Shown here: one piece after another, positions 1 through 63,118 of the stretch
How positions within the stretch are numbered: position 1 is the stretch's first letter
Layout: every line of letters starts with the position of its first letter
From: a virus
Taxonomy: Duplodnaviria > Caudoviricetes
Length of the DNA stretch: 63,118 nt
Strand: one strand, 5' to 3'
IMG/VR virus record: IMGVR_UViG_3300010042_000001
Location: 1 to 63,118 of that record
Notes under the pieces: generated by a model
What the model was told of the DNA's origin: nothing
What the model saw: the letters and a program-made list of their open reading frames with translations, nothing else
Databases searched by the model: none
Made by a program: the position numbers and the translations under genes

Positions 1-123
1 CGGCAGGATTTGAACCTGCGACCCTCTGCTCCCAAAGCAGTAGCGCTGCCAGACTGCGCCACATTCCGAAATCGCCGATGGGCACAGTCATCTGTTTCCA
101 GAGGCACAGGCCAGGTGCAAACA
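1..123. repeat. Terminal direct repeat identical to 62996-63118 (circular assembly overlap)
   Basis: The first and last 123 nt are identical, and the repeat cuts through a tRNA gene. Confidence 0.95.
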
Positions 124-139
124 GCCGTTGCTCGCGAAC

Positions 140-223
140 AAGCTAAGGGCCCACCGACTGGCAAGGTGTCACAGGCGCCAGCCGACTGACTTGTGTCGGT
201 GCGGGTCTGCGTACCCCTTGCTT
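140..223 (-). ncRNA. Putative ~85-nt hairpin RNA, first unit of the ncRNA operon
   Basis: Minus-strand stems AAGC-AAGGG/CCCTT-A-GCTT and CACCGAC/GTCGGTG start just after a sigma70 promoter; no credible ORF. Confidence 0.5.
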
Positions 224-230
224 GGAACCG

Positions 231-258
231 AATATAGCACACGCTAAAAAGACGTCAA
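231..258 (-). promoter_or_regulatory. Sigma70 promoter driving the ncRNA/tRNA cluster
   Basis: TTGACG-N16-TATATT with an extended -10 TG; the -35 overlaps the terL stop codon. Confidence 0.75.
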
Positions 259-2429
259 CCCAAATTTGCCTGCGCGTGCCGTCTTTTTTTCCGTTGCGCC
301 GGCCGCAGAACGCGGACCTCGGTAGGTTCCTCGCGCGTGTTGGCCTGCAGCGCGCGGCGGTCGGCCCTGGAAACCACCAGGCTGTTGCAGTAGAGCGGCG
401 AGAGCTGCGGCGGCACCTTGTTCCAGTCCACAATCTTGTCCAGGCCCAGGTAGAGGTAGCCGGCGTGGGCCATGCGGCACAAGTCGAATGTCTCGTTGCG
501 CGAGCGCACCTTGCTCCAGATCCCGCTCGGGCTGCGCGTCTCGGCGTGCAGCTCGTCGAAAAACGCCACCGTGACCCAGCCGTTTGGCCACAGGGTCGGA
601 TGCTTCGCCTTGGGGAAGTGGATGTAGCCAGGGCCTGGCACATCGCGGCGTAGCCCGCTGTCCACGGCGTCCGAGAGCAGGTGCGGATTGCAGAGCTGCA
701 GCGGCACGTCGCCGGTCTTGTTGTTCTTGCCCCCCACCATGGTCTCTCGGACCACTGGCGCCTTGGGCTCGCTCCCGCCCTTGTACAGCATCACGCGGTT
801 GTGCAGCTTCTCGGCGCGCAGGCGACGATACCAGGCGTATGCGTTGTGCGATACGCCCTCGCCGCCGTTGGCCTTGCCCTCACCGCCGGTATCGACCACG
901 GTCATGAGTGGGTGCAGCTCGCGCTCGTCCTCGGGTGTGCGCCACGTGGCCCGAATCACCAGCTCGGTGATCTGGTCCCAGTCCTCGGCAAAACCGGCGG
1001 GGTCGATTGGTGCGAACTCCTGGCCAGAGCCAGGGCGCCGCGAGTCCTTGATCTCGAAGCGGTCGATGACCCAGCGCTCGCCGTAGGGCCCGACTGCCTG
1101 GATCTGCACCACGAACCGCGCATTGGACCCACCCTGCACGTCCACTGCCGCGATGATGCAGCGGGTTTCCGCCGGTGCGATGTACTGCGGGTATTCCTCC
1201 GCACGCTCGGCAGGGGTCTTTCCGTTGGTCTTGTTGTCGGCCAGGTGCCTTGGCATGTAGGGCATGCCTTGGTCGGTGTTGACCGTCTGCTTTAGCTTTT
1301 CTTCCGAGCCCGTCAGCGCGAATTCCTGGAGCCCGATCAGGTACTGCTCGATCAGCGATTGCCAGGACTGGTATGCAGCGGCCACGCCCCCGAGCCAGTA
1401 GCCCTGCATGGTCGATTGCCGGCTCTCCCCGTGCATGTTTCCTTCGTCGTCCACAGTGACGCCATCGGGCAACCAGACACCGCGCGAATTCATTTCCTTT
1501 TTGGCGCTCGGTTGGATGATGCAGCCGTGGACGGGGCACGTGATGCGCGCATAGTGCTTGGCCATCACCGGTGCGCTGATCGAGCGCGCGTCTCGCACCA
1601 GTTCCTCGAAGGACGGCATGCGGAACAGGTCCAGGCCAGGGGCCGCCTCGAAGTACGAGCCGCACTCGGGACAGCGCCAGTACCAGCGCTGGCGGTCGGT
1701 GCGGTTGTAGAGCGACAAGATCCCGCCGGTGGGTGGGGCCTCGTGCGCCGTGGCCGGCGTCCAGCCGAGCGAGATCAGCGGCTTGCCGGGGCTGGACTCG
1801 ACTAGGGTCATGCCGCGCGACATGAAGGTGGTTGTGCGCTTTTTGGCCAAGTCGAACAACGGGCCTTCGCCGTCCACGTTCTCCGCGTTGGCCATCCGGT
1901 CGATATCGGTGATGGCCACGTACCGGTAGGTCGAGCCGGAGACGTTGGAGACGGTCGGCCAGGCGATCCGCACCCACATGCCATGCCGGAACATTTTGTC
2001 GAACGTGTTGTCGTCCACGTCGCGCGCCGAGAGCATGGCCTTGACGTGCTCGCTGTGGCGCAGCGCGCTGTCGATATCGGTCTTGGAGAATTCCCGCGCC
2101 TTGTCCTTGTTCATCTGGATGAACAGCATGTTGCCGGGGTCGTTCACCACGTTGTGGCACATCCAGCCGACCAGCAGGCCGGCGGTCTTGCCTGTCCGTG
2201 CCGGCCCGACGAACACAGTGGCCTCGTGCAGCCGCGAGGCGAGCGAATTGAGGGGGGCGACCATGTAGGGCGTCGCGCTCGCGCTCCAGGCCGTGGCCGC
2301 ACCGCCGGTCTGCTTAATGATCAGGTTTTTGGCGGCCCCTTCGCTGATGGTCACTCGGTTGGGTGCCTTGAACGCTTCGTACCCGCTGCACACATCGCTC
2401 AGCGCGCGCCCGTAGTGCGACTGGTCCAT
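255..2429 (-). CDS. terL: Terminase large subunit (lambda gpA family)
   Basis: 724 aa; Walker A GPARTGKT, WYWRCPECG, nuclease motif AAVDVQ, RNETFD; directly downstream of terS. Confidence 0.95.
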   Translation of the reverse strand: MDQSHYGRALSDVCSGYEAFKAPNRVTISEGAAKNLIIKQTGGAATAWSASATPYMVAPLNSLASRLHEATVFVGPARTGKTAGLLVGWMCHNVVNDPGNMLFIQMNKDKAREFSKTDIDSALRHSEHVKAMLSARDVDDNTFDKMFRHGMWVRIAWPTVSNVSGSTYRYVAITDIDRMANAENVDGEGPLFDLAKKRTTTFMSRGMTLVESSPGKPLISLGWTPATAHEAPPTGGILSLYNRTDRQRWYWRCPECGSYFEAAPGLDLFRMPSFEELVRDARSISAPVMAKHYARITCPVHGCIIQPSAKKEMNSRGVWLPDGVTVDDEGNMHGESRQSTMQGYWLGGVAAAYQSWQSLIEQYLIGLQEFALTGSEEKLKQTVNTDQGMPYMPRHLADNKTNGKTPAERAEEYPQYIAPAETRCIIAAVDVQGGSNARFVVQIQAVGPYGERWVIDRFEIKDSRRPGSGQEFAPIDPAGFAEDWDQITELVIRATWRTPEDERELHPLMTVVDTGGEGKANGGEGVSHNAYAWYRRLRAEKLHNRVMLYKGGSEPKAPVVRETMVGGKNNKTGDVPLQLCNPHLLSDAVDSGLRRDVPGPGYIHFPKAKHPTLWPNGWVTVAFFDELHAETRSPSGIWSKVRSRNETFDLCRMAHAGYLYLGLDKIVDWNKVPPQLSPLYCNSLVVSRADRRALQANTREEPTEVRVLRPAQRKKRRHAQANLG

Positions 2430-2908
2430 TATTTGCCCTTGCCTTTTTCTGGCTCGTCGGTCACGAACATTTCTAGTTCGTTGGCCAAAGTGGTCAGCGC
2501 TTCGTTAATCGACTCTTCGATTTTCACCAAAACCGCCGGGTCCAGGCCAAACTCCTTTTCCAGAATATCCGGGATCTGGCGAATATGGCTGGCCACGCTC
2601 GCGAGCGCTTCGGCCGATGCCTCCCGGTACGCTGACCGAGAGAGGTATTCCCCGCTGTCGATCTGGAATCTCAGTTCGGCGTTTTTGGCGTCGGCCTGCG
2701 CCTTGGCCAGCTTCGCGTCCGACAGTTCAATGGCCCGCTTCGTGGCCTCGGATAGGTGGGGCGCATCTGGGCTATCGGCCTGGCTCCGATCCTTGGGCGA
2801 ATATCCCGGTTTGCGGCCAGCGCCCTCCCGCCGCCCGCCTTTATTCGGTCGCAAAGTGCCATCGGTCTGGAGTTCAAAGTCAGCATTCATACCTGCATTA
2901 TTCCTCAT
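2429..2908 (-). CDS. terS: Terminase small subunit (start may be 2890)
   Basis: GGRREGAGRK DNA-binding motif and coiled coil; TAATG overlap with terL. Confidence 0.85.
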   Translation of the reverse strand: MRNNAGMNADFELQTDGTLRPNKGGRREGAGRKPGYSPKDRSQADSPDAPHLSEATKRAIELSDAKLAKAQADAKNAELRFQIDSGEYLSRSAYREASAEALASVASHIRQIPDILEKEFGLDPAVLVKIEESINEALTTLANELEMFVTDEPEKGKGK

Positions 2909-3015
2909 TTAGCGATTGCTATGTAAGACATAGGCATCTGTGACCTGGATGTAGGTAATCCGGTGTAACGGACGATTATCAATGACAAAAAAGTTCGGAA
3001 TAAGCGTTCACCGCG

Positions 3016-3027
3016 CTCATTGTCACC
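3016..3027 (-). other. Predicted cosN 12-nt cohesive end GGTGACAATGAG
   Basis: TGCG|GGTGACAATGAG|CGCG on the minus strand upstream of terS, lambda-like symmetric flanks, and a cosQ-like GGGGCCCC about 20 nt upstream. Confidence 0.5.
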
Positions 3028-3362
3028 CGCACGTCTATGAACTCCACAGGGGCCCCCGGAATTAATTAAATCCCGCGCGTGAACAGGATTGCTGTGGCTT
3101 GAGCTGTAACGCAACACACAACACATACACACAACAGAGTCTGCGCTGTGACGCATGGCCGGCTGTTGTTAGTTGTGCATAGCGTTACAACACACCGTGC
3201 ATACGCTGGTCTGTGCATGGTGTGTTGCGTGTTCATGCTCATTAGACGCACTGTGTACATGCATGCGCTACACGCCAGGTAGAGGTGGCCATGACCTGCC
3301 CTGTAGTGTGTGTTGTTACATGTAGCGTTACAATTTATTTTCAGCATGGTGCATGAAACCTA

Positions 3363-3390
3363 TTGACAGTGGATGCAGTAACGCTACAAT
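3363..3390 (+). promoter_or_regulatory. Strong sigma70 early promoter
   Basis: TTGACA-N16-TACAAT upstream of an AGGAG RBS and the early operon. Confidence 0.85.
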
Positions 3391-3425
3391 CAACACATCG
3401 CAACAGACAAACAGGAGCTGACACC

Positions 3426-3584
3426 ATGTACCGCAACGAACACACTGCCAACGAAGCCCTTGCCACTATGGCCACAGAGCGGGCCCGTTGGGCTGCAGCA
3501 CTGGCCGCACCTGCCAGCCGCACGGCACGCACCGTGCACAAGAAAATGGGTTTTATCGCCCGCATCGTGGCTTTGTTCGCATAA
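3426..3584 (+). CDS. Early hypothetical protein
   Basis: AGGAG RBS; first gene after the promoter. Confidence 0.7.
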   Translation: MYRNEHTANEALATMATERARWAAALAAPASRTARTVHKKMGFIARIVALFA

Positions 3585-3594
3585 GGGGCGAGTA

Positions 3595-3813
3595 ATGAAC
3601 ACAGCTCAAATTGAAGCGCTTGTAGTAGCAGATTCGCACCTCGCAAGTGTAGGTCTGTTGTCCTACGCCCAGTTACTTGAATTGTTGAATGACGCAGCCC
3701 GATTGGGTTTGACGTTCGATATTGGTAGCGCGTATATCCGCCGGTGCTATATCGACGAACAAACGGCCCTTTGCGCCCGCATAGCGGCTGCGAATGGCAA
3801 TGTGAAACCCTGA
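3595..3813 (+). CDS. Early hypothetical protein
   Basis: AAGGGG RBS; MNTAQIEA start; operon packing. Confidence 0.7.
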   Translation: MNTAQIEALVVADSHLASVGLLSYAQLLELLNDAARLGLTFDIGSAYIRRCYIDEQTALCARIAAANGNVKP

Positions 3814-15841: not shown

Positions 15842-15869
15842 AGTATATCGCAATCGCTAAAAAAGTCAC
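15842..15869 (-). promoter_or_regulatory. Sigma70 promoter with operator motif in the spacer
   Basis: GTGACT-N16-TATACT; the spacer contains TTTAGCGATTGCGA. Confidence 0.7.
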
Positions 15870-21674: not shown

Positions 21675-21880
21675 GGAAAGTATTTTCGCATACGCTAAAA
21701 AACTTTGCAACGCTAAAAATCGTTTTCTTCGCTCTCGCGCTGCACATACCCCATGTTGAACCCCACCCATGCCGCCTCGAATTGATGCACGCCATAGGCG
21801 CCAGACGGATCTCGCCAGAAGAGAGCGGCCATGGTGGGGTCGCCTTCTGCACCTGGTTGCTGCCACCCTTGATCCTTGAG

Positions 21881-27580: not shown

Positions 27581-27638
27581 TTTTAGCGATTGCGATGTTA
27601 GATAAATTTCTTTTCGCACTCGCTAAACGTGGTATGCT
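27581..27638 (+). promoter_or_regulatory. Two oppositely oriented operator motifs plus a rightward extended -10 promoter
   Basis: TTTTAGCGATTGCGA at 27581, TCGCACTCGCTAAA at 27614, TGgTATGCT at 27630-27638. Confidence 0.6.
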
Positions 27639-31266: not shown

Positions 31267-31293
31267 GACAAGTTATTTCGCATTCGCTAAACT
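31265..31293 (+). promoter_or_regulatory. Sigma70 promoter with operator motif
   Basis: TTGACA-N17-TAAACT; 31271-31298 is identical to 38875-38902. Confidence 0.8.
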
Positions 31294-38876: not shown

Positions 38877-38897
38877 TTATTTCGCATTCGCTAAACT
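38869..38897 (+). promoter_or_regulatory. Sigma70 promoter with operator motif
   Basis: TTGCGT-N17-TAAACT; duplicate of the 31265 promoter core. Confidence 0.75.
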
Positions 38898-62557: not shown

Positions 62558-62586
62558 AAAAAGAAAAACCCAGCCGAAGCTGGGTT
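62558..62586 (-). terminator. Terminator closing the ncRNA operon
   Basis: AACCCAGC-TTCG-GCTGGGTT followed by TTTCTTTTT. Confidence 0.85.
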
Positions 62587-62621
62587 GTAAAGGGCTGCGA
62601 TCAGCCGAGAGGGAGACAATT

Positions 62622-62713
62622 TTGAGCCCGCGTTGTGGAATCGAACCACCGACCTCCGTCTATGCAACGGTGCTCTACCTCGGACTGGCCAGGTCCACTG
62701 AGCTACCGCAGGC
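62622..62713 (-). ncRNA. Remodelled tRNA-like RNA
   Basis: Acceptor GCCTGCG/CGCGGGC, TAGCTCAG..GGTAGAGC D-arm with a 16-nt insert, GGTTCGATTCC T-loop, shortened anticodon arm, ends CAA. Confidence 0.7.
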
Positions 62714-62719
62714 GTAAAA

Positions 62720-62803
62720 CAAGGCTAGGACAACGGTATCGGCTCAGGTGATGCATCATTCCCTTCCGGGAGTGTCAAGCGCCGAATCCCGTCGTCTTCG
62801 CAC
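62720..62803 (-). ncRNA. ~83-nt hairpin RNA, unit A
   Basis: GTGCGAA-GACGACGG...CCGTTGTC-CTAGCCTTG; internal TCCC-GGAA-GGGA. Confidence 0.55.
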
Positions 62804-62808
62804 AAAAA

Positions 62809-62895
62809 TGCAGACTGGGGATACCCCTAGTCCGTCGTCGCGCTTACCGGCAGATCCGGTAACTATCAAGCTGCAGCAGGGCGACGACTTTGCAA
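62809..62895 (-). ncRNA. Multi-stem RNA, unit B
   Basis: GTCGTCGC/GCGACGAC, TTACCGG/CCGGTAA and GACTAGGGG/CCCCAGTC stems closed by TGCA/TGCA. Confidence 0.55.
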
Positions 62896-62897
62896 AC

Positions 62898-62980
62898 CAA
62901 GGCTCGGGTGGACCGCCGTATCTCCGTTGTGTGACTACACACGAGCCCCACGCTGGTCCTCTAACGGTCCACCTTCGCAC
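62898..62980 (-). ncRNA. ~82-nt hairpin RNA, unit C
   Basis: GTGCGAA-GGTGGACCG...CGGTCCACC-CGAGCCTTG; internal GTGTG/CACAC. Confidence 0.55.
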
Positions 62981-62986
62981 AAAAAC

Positions 62987-63063
62987 TGGTCGGAACGGCA
63001 GGATTTGAACCTGCGACCCTCTGCTCCCAAAGCAGTAGCGCTGCCAGACTGCGCCACATTCCG
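62987..63063 (-). tRNA. tRNA-Pro(UGG) with encoded CCA
   Basis: CGGAATG...CTGC-TT-TGG-GA-GCAG...GCAGGTTCAAATCCTGC-CGTTCCG-ACCA; 77-nt cloverleaf. Confidence 0.95.
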
Positions 63064-63118
63064 AAATCGCCGATGGGCACAGTCATCTGTTTCCAGAGGC
63101 ACAGGCCAGGTGCAAACA

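What the first reader, a model, noticed from the sequence alone, without database searches (positions are those of the whole stretch)
62558..63118. Top candidate: a tRNA-punctuated array of structured small RNAs between terL and gpW
Seen: about 660 nt across the circular junction (about 224 to 1, then 62995 to 62558) with no credible ORF, bounded by its own promoter and terminator, in a spot where lambda-type phages have terL abutting gpW. Transcript order is hairpin RNA, GNRA hairpins, tRNA-Pro, unit C, unit B, unit A, remodelled tRNA, CU-rich element, terminator, with units separated by short U-rich linkers. Inference: a polycistronic precursor cut by tRNA-processing enzymes into several ~80-nt RNAs with a constant handle and variable interior. 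They could be guides or antisense RNAs, or decoys for host RNA-sensing or tRNA-cleaving defences. I cannot assign it to a known family.
Basis: partly seen in the sequence, partly recalled or inferred. Interest (0 to 1): 0.9.

Follow-up and report, generated by a model that had tools for sequence, protein, structure and literature searches.

The report
Phage operon of tRNA-like RNAs
Between two packaging genes this uncultured phage carries a small non-coding RNA operon (one normal proline tRNA, one conserved tRNA look-alike, three hairpin-closed RNA modules and a pyrimidine-rich tail), much like the still unexplained small stable RNAs beside phage T4's tRNA genes; related phages swap the insides of such modules wholesale.

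Summary
On the minus strand, across the junction of a circular phage contig, a promoter overlapping the terL stop codon and an intrinsic terminator bound about 660 nt with no credible gene. In order it holds a leader, a canonical tRNA-Pro(UGG), three stem-closed modules (C, B, A), a tRNA mimic, a CU-rich tail and the terminator. Rfam and ARAGORN recognise only tRNA-Pro.

One close relative (L093) keeps the mimic. Its 6 stem substitutions form 3 compensated pairs and none breaks a pair. L093 keeps module C's handles and closing stem unchanged while C's interior drifts, and it replaces B+A with an unrelated 179-nt module.

Of 47 distinct relatives' loci, 10 clusters (11 arrays) hold comparable promoter-to-terminator RNA arrays in this slot, including cultured Acidovorax phage ACF1. 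Three sibling pairs show four interiors at chance identity inside 80-100% identical flanks.

My reading: a tRNA-type stable-RNA operon matured by host RNase P and RNase E, closest to T4's tRNA cluster with rnaC/rnaD. I have no usable expression or processing data. Tests for guide targets, VIPR, retron, Ro/Y-RNA and known large RNAs were negative. It is a new variant of a known kind, and the function of the accessory RNAs is unknown.

The parts
231..258 (-). Promoter of the RNA operon (TTGACG-N16-TATATT); its -35 hexamer overlaps the terL stop codon
   Evidence: 10 of 12 matches, TG before the -10 hexamer, 1 found against 0.0 expected. Promoter-like sequences at the same place in relatives were read by eye.
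235..248 (+). Copy (1 mismatch) of the phage's 14-nt promoter-associated motif TCGCANWCGCTAAA, lying in the spacer and -10 region of the operon promoter
   Evidence: 10 matches in the window at up to 2 mismatches, against 2.08 expected; 0 of 100 shuffles reach 10.
69..225 (-). 5' leader, about 155 nt. The transcription start is inferred. Bases 69-123 also appear as 63064-63118 in the terminal repeat.
   Evidence: folds no better than shuffles (z = -1.1 and -0.2). Absent from L093.
62987..63063 (-). tRNA-Pro(UGG), canonical, with encoded CCA. A truncated second copy at 1-68 is the assembly's terminal repeat.
   Evidence: 59.9 bits. CCA makes up 16% of proline codons in 58 crude ORFs.
62894..62985 (-). 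Unit C: 5' handle UUUUUGUGCGAAG, 9-bp closing stem GGUGGACCG/CGGUCCACC, variable interior, 3' handle CCGAGCCUUGGUUU
   Evidence: (repeats D1 and D2, inverted repeat I2). Handles and stem are invariant in L093; the interior has 14 differences.
62809..62893 (-). Unit B: GCAAAG, a closing stem (11-nt inverted-repeat arms) and a second hairpin GGACU-AGGGGUAUCCCC-AGUCU
   Evidence: z = -2.7; I1: 11-nt arms, 91% complementary. Replaced in L093.
62716..62808 (-). Unit A: same handles as unit C, closing stem ACGACGG/CCGUUGU, unrelated interior
   Evidence: (z = -2.6). Replaced in L093.
62625..62713 (-). tRNA mimic: 7-bp acceptor stem, D-stem with a hairpin inserted in the D-loop, 4-bp anticodon stem with loop UGCAUAG, T-arm GGUGGUUCGAUUCCAC, an extra G and A at the acceptor/T junction, no CCA
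   Evidence: tRNA-Sec model 24.2 bits, gathering score 47; not called by ARAGORN; 10 differences from L093, 6 of them forming 3 compensated pairs.
62607..62619 (-). CU-rich single-stranded element UUGUCUCCCUCUC
   Evidence: It differs from L093 by a single inserted C. Related UCUCCC or UCCUCCC motifs precede the terminator in L027, L006, ACF1, L017 and L095.
62558..62606 (-). Small hairpin GGCUG-AUCG-CAGCC, then CCUUUACA, then the intrinsic terminator and its U-tract
   Evidence: z = -3.7; identical in L093.

Best explanation
This is a phage 'stable-RNA operon' of the tRNA-cluster type, inserted as an independent transcription unit between terL and the head-tail adaptor gene.

Shown by sequence: its own strong promoter, which carries the phage's promoter-associated 14-nt motif, and an intrinsic terminator frame a transcript of about 660 nt. 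The order is leader, tRNA-Pro(UGG)-CCA, modules C, B and A, tRNA mimic, CU-rich tail.

Inferred from established tRNA maturation: host RNase P cuts at the 5' side of tRNA-Pro and of the mimic. RNase E cuts in the U-rich linkers and 3' trailers, followed by exonuclease trimming. The products would be tRNA-Pro, the stem-closed modules, the mimic, and a 3' RNA of about 65 nt. That RNA has a single-stranded CU-rich 5' end, a small hairpin and a terminator with a U-tail, which is the layout of a base-pairing small RNA.

Likely roles. tRNA-Pro is an ordinary supplementary or replacement tRNA. The mimic cannot decode: it has no U33, a 4-bp anticodon stem and a D-loop hairpin. Its acceptor stem, T-arm and insert hairpin are conserved, so it most likely acts through tRNA-recognising host factors. 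It could serve as a processing and stability signal and/or as a decoy for tRNA-directed enzymes. The modules keep their handles and closing stems while their interiors are free to change or be swapped.

I take the modules and mimic to be accumulating accessory RNAs like T4 rnaC and rnaD. Their trans function is not known.
For: - Promoter and terminator.
- Only tRNA-Pro reaches tRNA thresholds.
- Mimic, WIN versus L093: 10 differences in 90 columns. Six make 3 compensated pairs (acceptor G-C to A-U; insert hairpin A-U to G-C and C-G to G-C). None of 36 pairs is broken, and registers slid by 1-3 columns give 0 compensated pairs.
- A covariance model built from the mimic also finds a tRNA-like element with a hairpin in the same D region in L040, whose terL is 59% identical (27.5 bits).
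- Unit C: 0 of 35 handle/stem columns changed against 14 of 49 interior columns, p = 2.4e-4.
- Units and the whole block fold better than shuffles, z = -2.0 to -2.7.
- Same slot in relatives: of 67 evaluable loci (47 distinct by the first 250 nt after the terL stop), 10 clusters hold promoter-to-terminator RNA arrays. That is 11 arrays, since L007 and L008 fall in one cluster. They carry 0-3 canonical tRNAs plus aberrant tRNA-like and stem-closed modules, and all have terL 53-65% identical. The array class was assigned by my reading; the count is. L093 is a further array but has no terL on its contig and is not counted.
- The CU-rich motif plus terminator recurs at the 3' end of the arrays.
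- T4 has the same layout: eight tRNAs, the GIY-YIG homing endonuclease segB, then rnaD and rnaC directly after tRNA-Arg. rnaC contains a T-arm. Like the mimic, it gets only a weak tRNA-Sec match and no family-level match (17.5 bits).
- PMC9697503 (passages read) calls RNAC and RNAD late RNAs 'of yet unknown functions'.
- In L093 an ORF of the MUG113/T5orf172 nuclease-type family sits at the tRNA-Pro breakpoint.
Against: - There is no usable expression or processing evidence.
- The interiors of C, B and A have no detectable relatives, so their structures cannot be tested. For unit C, 0 of 18 predicted pairs are compensated and the predicted inner hairpins are not kept in L093.
- The z-scores are moderate for a GC-rich phage. 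The mimic and leader fold no better than shuffles.
- The compensation evidence rests on two sequences; the shuffle control reaches the observed value in 63 of 500 trials.
- L093 has lost the leader and the 5' half of tRNA-Pro, so those parts are dispensable there.
- The closing stems of C, B and A are short (7-11 bp).
- Only two tRNA-type elements punctuate the array.
- No phage-encoded partner protein was found. TROVE, RVT_1, ProQ, Hfq, RtcB, PolyA_pol and tyrosine integrase were all absent.
Confidence: 0.62

Rival explanations
1. Decaying tRNA island. Only tRNA-Pro is functional. The mimic and units are relics of tRNA genes and recombination scars left by homing-endonuclease traffic in an accessory hot spot, transcribed but without function.
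For: - The slot is a hot spot. It holds a small antisense ORF in 13 distinct loci and other genes elsewhere.
- Four interiors in three sibling pairs are at chance identity (0.40-0.53, against shuffle means of 0.39-0.50). Each of the eight versions is a singleton among all loci fetched, apart from a 57-nt piece of one L008 interior that recurs within L007 and L008.
- L093 carries half a tRNA-Pro next to a MUG113/T5orf172 ORF.
- L003's 'tRNA-Ala' has a shortened anticodon loop.
- The unit interiors show no covariation.
Against: - All six stem substitutions in the mimic are compensated.
- Handles and closing stems are invariant while interiors change (p = 2.4e-4).
- The units show no tRNA similarity even at E up to 10.
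- The promoter, the closing-stem design and the CU-rich tail plus terminator persist across phages whose terL is only 53-65% identical.
- From general knowledge: phage genomes rarely keep 400-1200 nt of junk.
Confidence: 0.2
2. Cis-acting boundary element. The structures serve only to end and stabilise the terS-terL message and to insulate it from the head-gene message, acting as a 3' UTR with processing hairpins. The tRNA is a passenger.
For: - Position between two late operons.
- No terminator lies between terL and the array, so terL read-through would include it.
- A strong terminator precedes an AT-rich region ahead of gpW.
Against: - The array has its own near-consensus promoter at the terL stop codon, in WIN and in relatives.
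- Curvibacter phage PCA1 does without the region; its terL-gpW gap is 38 nt.
- A boundary element needs neither a conserved tRNA mimic nor arrays of up to about 1.2 kb.
Confidence: 0.08
3. A platform for programmable or decoy RNAs. The handles are bound by a host or phage protein, and the variable interiors are guides or baits aimed at host defences or rival phages.
For: - Constant handles with hypervariable interiors.
- Wholesale interior swaps between phages that are 98-100% identical in the flanks (L007/L008).
- Literature context: phage tRNA loci act as counter-defence (PMC13096335, abstract; preprint 10.1101/2023.03.15.532788, search listing only).
Against: - No complementarity above chance to the phage's own genome, to 50,697 phage records or to 301 sampled genomes.
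- No partner protein gene was found.
- No GGY-NN arrays of the VIPR type.
- The interiors are themselves folded, not single-stranded.
Confidence: 0.1

Closest known systems
Phage T4 tRNA gene cluster with the small stable RNAs rnaC (species 1) and rnaD (species 2)
   Same: - tRNA genes and non-tRNA stable RNAs abut head to tail on one strand.
- rnaC carries a T-arm, and rnaD ends in ...CACCA.
- rnaC, like the mimic here, gets only a weak tRNA-Sec match, and neither rnaC nor rnaD matches any other Rfam family at E up to 1.
- A homing endonuclease of the GIY-YIG family (segB) sits inside the cluster. In L093 a MUG113/T5orf172 ORF sits at the tRNA-Pro breakpoint.
- The function of RNAC and RNAD is still unknown (PMC9697503, passages read).
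   Different: - No sequence relation. The model built from the mimic hits only T4 tRNA-Thr.
- The location differs: here between terL and the head-tail adaptor of a lambda-like module.
- Only one canonical tRNA is present.
- Modules have shared handles and swapped interiors.
- There is a conserved CU-rich terminal element.
tRNA-linked small RNAs and tRNA-like processing signals: the 3' external transcribed spacer of E. coli leuZ, plant mitochondrial t-elements, mascRNA-type signals (recalled, not checked in any call). An earlier scan note, e1-5356611, describes a phage tRNA cluster with mini-tRNA mimics.
   Same: A tRNA-shaped element would define the ends of neighbouring RNAs through RNase P and 3' processing. 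The CU-rich 3' RNA would be released from the trailer of the mimic.
   Different: Processing is untested here. The mimic carries a conserved D-loop hairpin that those signals lack.
Betaproteobacterial CU-rich small RNAs: Rfam anti-hemB (RF02837) and 'Betaproteobacteria toxic small RNA' (RF02278)
   Same: A pyrimidine-rich (CCUCCC-type) single-stranded stretch followed by hairpins and a terminator. Weak matches: WIN tail 19.3 bits; L017 tail 27.9 and 25.9 bits.
   Different: All matches are far below the gathering scores (49.5 and 50). The tail is not a member on this evidence.
Bacterial Y RNA YrlA with Ro60/Rsr (recalled)
   Same: A non-decoding RNA that imitates the acceptor, T and D region of a tRNA.
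   Different: No TROVE (Ro60) gene in the phage. No Rfam Y-RNA-type match at E up to 10. No long Ro-binding helix.
ROOL and GOLLD large phage RNAs; theta (HDV-like) ribozymes next to phage tRNAs (PMC10879173, passages read)
   Same: Phage-borne structured RNA next to tRNA genes.
   Different: No Rfam match to ROOL, GOLLD or HDV-type families at E up to 10. This is a modular array with a different make-up in each relative, not one conserved fold. By eye, the bases right after tRNA-Pro have no strong P1 partner. The theta descriptor file is in a supplement that I could not see.

Membership tests
tRNA (Rfam RF00005), applied to tRNA-Pro 62987-63063 | Cloverleaf scoring above the gathering score, with a 7-nt anticodon loop | tested here: met
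   59.9 bits against a gathering score of 29. ARAGORN calls tRNA-Pro(tgg).
tRNA, applied to the mimic 62626-62713 | Recognised by the tRNA model or by ARAGORN | tested here: not met
   Not called by ARAGORN. The only clan match is tRNA-Sec at 24.2 bits, against a gathering score of 47.
tRNA, applied to the mimic | 7-bp acceptor stem and a T-arm with the GUUCGAUUC loop | tested here: met
   The acceptor pair 7-66 is compensated between WIN and L093.
tRNA, applied to the mimic | Normal D-loop; 5-bp anticodon stem; 7-nt loop with U33 | tested here: not met
   17-nt hairpin insert in the D-loop, 4-bp anticodon stem, loop UGCAUAG with G at position 33.
tRNA-Sec (RF01852) | Gathering score, UCA anticodon, long variable arm | tested here: not met
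   24.2 bits against 47. The central triplet is CAU and the variable region is short.
T4-type tRNA cluster with co-transcribed stable RNAs | tRNA gene(s) and non-tRNA structured RNAs abutting on one strand within one promoter-terminator unit | tested here: met
   for WIN; for T4.
T4-type tRNA cluster with co-transcribed stable RNAs | The extra RNAs accumulate as discrete stable species | not testable with these tools
   No listed run holding the stretch is on record as RNA. Contigs cannot show RNA ends.
T4-type tRNA cluster with co-transcribed stable RNAs | Sequence or model homology to rnaC or rnaD | tested here: not met
   Model R1 hits only tRNA-Thr in the T4 region.
Y RNA / YrlA-Ro60 | A Ro60 (TROVE) gene, and a Y-RNA family match | tested here: not met
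   TROVE absent from the phage, with controls positive. No match at E up to 10. The host genome is unknown.
ROOL / GOLLD / HDV-like ribozymes | Rfam covariance-model match | tested here: not met
   window; seven relatives.
VIPR vrRNA arrays | Alternating GGY/NN pentamers (preprint 10.64898/2026.04.26.720920, search listing) and a Vipr protein | tested here: not met
   No run of 3 or more GGYNN on either strand of the 757-nt region. I did not search for a Vipr protein.
Retron ncRNA | An adjacent reverse transcriptase | tested here: not met
   RVT_1 absent from the whole phage.
CRISPR-like or solitary-repeat RNA | Repeated units of 25-40 nt with spacers | tested here: not met
   The only direct repeats are the 13- and 14-nt handles, two copies each.
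anti-hemB / Betaproteobacteria toxic sRNA (CU-rich tail) | Rfam gathering score | tested here: not met
   19.3 bits against 49.5. For L017: 27.9 against 49.5 and 25.9 against 50.

The most novel reading that the evidence does not exclude
The terL-adaptor slot of this Comamonadaceae-type phage lineage may be a dedicated, promoter-driven RNA cassette platform. In this reading, handle-and-stem-bounded RNA modules have interiors that are exchanged wholesale between otherwise 98-100% identical phages. The locus would then be a diversity hot spot for trans-acting RNAs (decoys, sponges or guides) used in conflicts with host tRNA-directed defences or rival phages. tRNA-type elements would mature the modules, and a conserved anti-Shine-Dalgarno-like small RNA would end the transcript.
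Probability: 0.18. Interest if true: 0.85.

Novelty: new variant of a known kind. Interest (0 to 1): 0.55.

Why it matters
Phage T4's rnaC and rnaD have had no assigned function; PMC9697503 (passages read) still calls them RNAs of unknown function. This locus shows that the same design occurs in an unrelated, lambda-like phage lineage of betaproteobacteria: tRNA genes co-transcribed with tRNA-like and other stable RNAs, sometimes next to a homing-type nuclease.

Two features here are not described for T4:
- stem- and handle-bounded modules whose interiors turn over extremely fast;
- a conserved CU-rich terminal RNA.

One member, Acidovorax phage ACF1, is cultured, so the question can be tested at the bench. 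Phage tRNA loci are now known to counter tRNA-cleaving defences (PMC13096335, abstract). Non-decoding tRNA mimics under purifying selection are therefore plausible candidates for RNA-based counter-defence or for hijacking of RNA processing.

Tried and rejected
- Homologues of units A and C by handle pattern in IMG/VR. The 14 hits were all unrelated sequences on inspection.
- A 24-nt core of the mimic as a pattern in IMG/VR. Only L093 matched.
- Portal-based search for close relatives. Only the L093 contig (97%) and L095 (58%) were useful.
- BLAST of the region against INPHARED phages. Only tRNA-Pro matched.
- Guide-target search. Nothing above chance.
- Scan of the phage genome for targets of the CU-rich seed. 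The best sites, about -20 to -22 kcal/mol, are not at starts of credible genes.
- Alignment of the 3' tails of eight arrays. At 52% mean column identity it was too loose for a useful model, so none was built.
- Parent of the mimic. Its T-arm half is 82% like host tRNA-Ile(GAU) over 44 nt. The best tRNA among relatives' arrays under model R1 is a tRNA-Met(CAU). This suggests a CAU-type Ile/Met origin but does not show one.
- Sequencing runs. No listed holder is on record as RNA.
- Laid contigs:
  - Low-depth near-identical pieces in two other metagenomes (X2, X5).
  - One contig in X4 that follows tRNA-Pro into unit C and then diverges, keeping the 3' handle in its CUAGC form.
  - One exact 129-nt contig (62989-63117) in a run labelled RNA-Seq that the tool judges probably DNA.
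  - None of this is evidence on expression.
- Pfam and PHROGs gave no family for the small antisense ORF that fills the slot in 13 relatives. My impression that it is ribbon-helix-helix-like is unverified.
- HDV-like/theta ribozyme. There was no Rfam match, and by eye no P1 partner.
- A preprint on language-model mapping of non-coding RNA (10.64898/2026.10.21.760802) has no occurrence of 'tRNA-like', 'terminase', 'tRNA array', 'prophage' or 'portal'.
- I did not find this array family in print. Searches.
Full report
WHAT IS THERE

The window is a circularly assembled IMG/VR phage. Bases 1-123 repeat 62996-63118, so the unique length is 62995. I call this phage WIN below.

On the minus strand the gene order is terS, terL (2429-255), a 757-nt gap that crosses the junction, the head-tail adaptor gpW (62492-62262; PHROG 'head-tail adaptor Ad1') and portal.

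A sigma-70-type promoter, TTGACG-N16-TATATT (258-231), overlaps the terL stop codon. It matches 10 of 12 positions, and 1 was found against 0.0 expected. An intrinsic terminator lies at 62586-62567. Together they frame about 660 nt.

Only tRNA-Pro(UGG), with an encoded CCA, is recognised by ARAGORN and by Rfam at gathering score. A permissive Rfam scan of the region (E up to 10) adds only a sub-threshold tRNA-Sec match at 62626-62713 (24.2 bits, gathering score 47) and noise.

ANATOMY

Downstream of tRNA-Pro lie three modules.

- Units C (62985-62894) and A (62808-62716) are 92 and 93 nt. They share a 13-nt 5' handle (identical) and a 14-nt 3' handle (86% identical) at spacings of 177 and 178 nt.
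- Each of C and A folds as GC / 3x3 internal loop / 7-10-bp closing stem / variable interior.
- Unit B (62893-62809) shares only GCAAAG, and adds a second hairpin.
- Fold z-scores are -2.0, -2.7 and -2.6 for C, B and A, and -2.65 for the whole block.
- U-rich linkers separate the units.

The tRNA mimic follows. It has:
- a 7-bp acceptor stem;
- a normal D-stem with a 17-nt insert that forms a GGAC/GUCC hairpin;
- a 4-bp anticodon stem with loop UGCAUAG (no U33);
- a T-arm;
- an extra G and A at the acceptor/T junction;
- no CCA.

The transcript ends with UUGUCUCCCUCUC, a small hairpin, CCUUUACA and the terminator (z = -3.7). The 5' leader folds no better than shuffles.

ORFs in the gap have no PHROG family; 3 of 3 that I could reference were tested.

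RELATIVES

Searches with terL and portal gave 67 evaluable loci, 47 of them distinct. I classified the slot after terL by reading the sequences.

- 10 clusters, making 11 arrays, hold promoter-to-terminator non-coding arrays of 0.3-1.3 kb. Their terL is 53-65% identical. They include cultured Acidovorax phage ACF1.
- 13 hold a small conserved antisense ORF.
- 24 hold other content or none. Curvibacter phage PCA1, for example, has a 38-nt gap.

The arrays carry 0-3 canonical tRNAs. They also carry aberrant T-arm-bearing elements:
- L003's tRNA-Ala has a shortened anticodon loop.
- ACF1's 92-nt 'tRNA-Ala' is called by ARAGORN but gets no Rfam match.
- L040 has a tRNA-like element with a D-region hairpin (27.5 bits with my model).

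Long closed stems recur in these arrays, and a CU-rich motif precedes the terminator.

THE INFORMATIVE RELATIVE

A degenerate pattern found L093. Its adaptor and portal region is about 89% identical to WIN at the DNA level, and its portal protein is 97% identical.

- It keeps only the 3' half of tRNA-Pro. The 5' half and the leader are replaced by a reverse ORF of the MUG113/T5orf172 family.
- Unit C is kept. There are 0 differences in 35 handle/closing-stem columns and 14 in 49 interior columns (p = 2.4e-4). None of the 18 predicted pairs is compensated.
- Units B+A (162 nt) are replaced by an unrelated 179-nt module. Its closing helix extends from a perfect 17-bp core, and a 201-nt stretch containing the module folds with z = -5.3. 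Identity between the two versions is 0.50, the same as the shuffle mean of 0.50, while the flanks are 0.86 and 0.92 identical.
- The mimic differs at 10 of 90 positions. Six form three compensated pairs, two lie in the insert's loop, one in the T-loop and one at the discriminator position. No pair is broken, and slid registers give no compensated pairs.

With two sequences this is modest, since the shuffle control reaches the observed value in 63 of 500 trials. It is nevertheless consistent with selection on the acceptor stem and on the inserted hairpin.

CASSETTE-LIKE TURNOVER

The same pattern appears in two more sibling pairs.
- L007/L008: flanks 0.98-1.00 identical; two interiors at 0.40 and 0.48.
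- L006/L027: flanks 0.81 and 0.80; interior at 0.53.

Each interior is a singleton among all loci fetched, apart from a 57-nt piece of one L008 interior that recurs within L007 and L008.

WHAT IT IS NOT

- No Rfam family matches beyond tRNA.
- The phage has no TROVE, RVT_1, ProQ, Hfq, RtcB, PolyA_pol or tyrosine integrase gene.
- There are no GGY-NN arrays.
- No guide-like complementarity was found.

CLOSEST KNOWN

The T4 record shows eight tRNAs, segB (a GIY-YIG homing endonuclease), then rnaD and rnaC directly after tRNA-Arg. rnaC has a T-arm. Like the mimic here, it draws only a weak tRNA-Sec match. PMC9697503 (passages read) calls RNAC and RNAD late RNAs of unknown function. PMC13096335 (abstract) shows that SegB amplifies a phage tRNA gene to escape a tRNA-cleaving defence.

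MECHANISM

- Shown: the transcription signals, the tRNA, the conserved mimic, the module design, and the slot-wide recurrence.
- Inferred from textbook tRNA maturation (recalled): RNase P at the two tRNA-type 5' ends, RNase E in the U-rich linkers, and exonuclease trimming.
- Speculative: the mimic as a decoy or a processing and stability signal, the CU-rich tail as a base-pairing small RNA, and the interiors as fast-evolving cargo.

VERDICT

This is a new variant of a known kind, the phage tRNA-cluster stable RNAs. It is moderately interesting because of the cassette-like turnover and because a cultured relative makes it testable.

Noticed in passing
window 235-248, 2908-2921, 15848-15861, 21686-21699, 27582-27595, 27614-27627, 31278-31291, 38882-38895: The 14-nt motif TCGCANWCGCTAAA occurs 10 times at up to 2 mismatches against 2.08 expected; 8 sites have at most 1 mismatch. 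One copy lies in the RNA-operon promoter and one lies just upstream of terS. By eye, array promoters of relatives carry similar TTTAGC-N4-GC spacers. It is probably the operator or promoter element of a phage regulator.
   Followed up: partly
L093 166-693 (minus) and 777-823: In the closest relative, an ORF of the MUG113/T5orf172 nuclease-type family replaces the leader and the 5' half of tRNA-Pro. The breakpoint lies in the anticodon stem. The arrangement recalls segB inside the T4 tRNA cluster.
   Followed up: partly
L009-L016, L018, L021, L043, L045, L047, L054 (slot between terL and gpW, opposite strand): 13 distinct relatives fill the same slot with a conserved antisense ORF of about 64-95 aa (68-76 aa in most) with a basic N-terminus. 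It has no Pfam or PHROG family.
   Followed up: partly
L038 (ACF1) 208-3432; L022 484-3735; L024 616-3813: The terL matches in these loci span about 3.2 kb where about 2.1 kb is expected. In ACF1 the match comes in 2 pieces. This suggests an intein or another insertion in terL.
   Followed up: no
L003 3300-3440; L040 3390-3505; L007 about 3430-3680; L095 2480-2995; L038 4260-4420: In several arrays the 3' strand of a long upstream hairpin is also the 5' acceptor strand of the next tRNA-like module. Two mutually exclusive foldings are therefore possible (read by eye; folds). WIN does not show this.
   Followed up: no
L019 / L057, slot after terL: Here the slot holds a single 742-aa ORF on the terL strand. 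I did not identify it.
   Followed up: no
L112 (phage T4) 1909-2172: T4 rnaC and rnaD have no Rfam family at E up to 1. The 3' part of rnaC gets a 17.5-bit tRNA-Sec match.
   Followed up: partly
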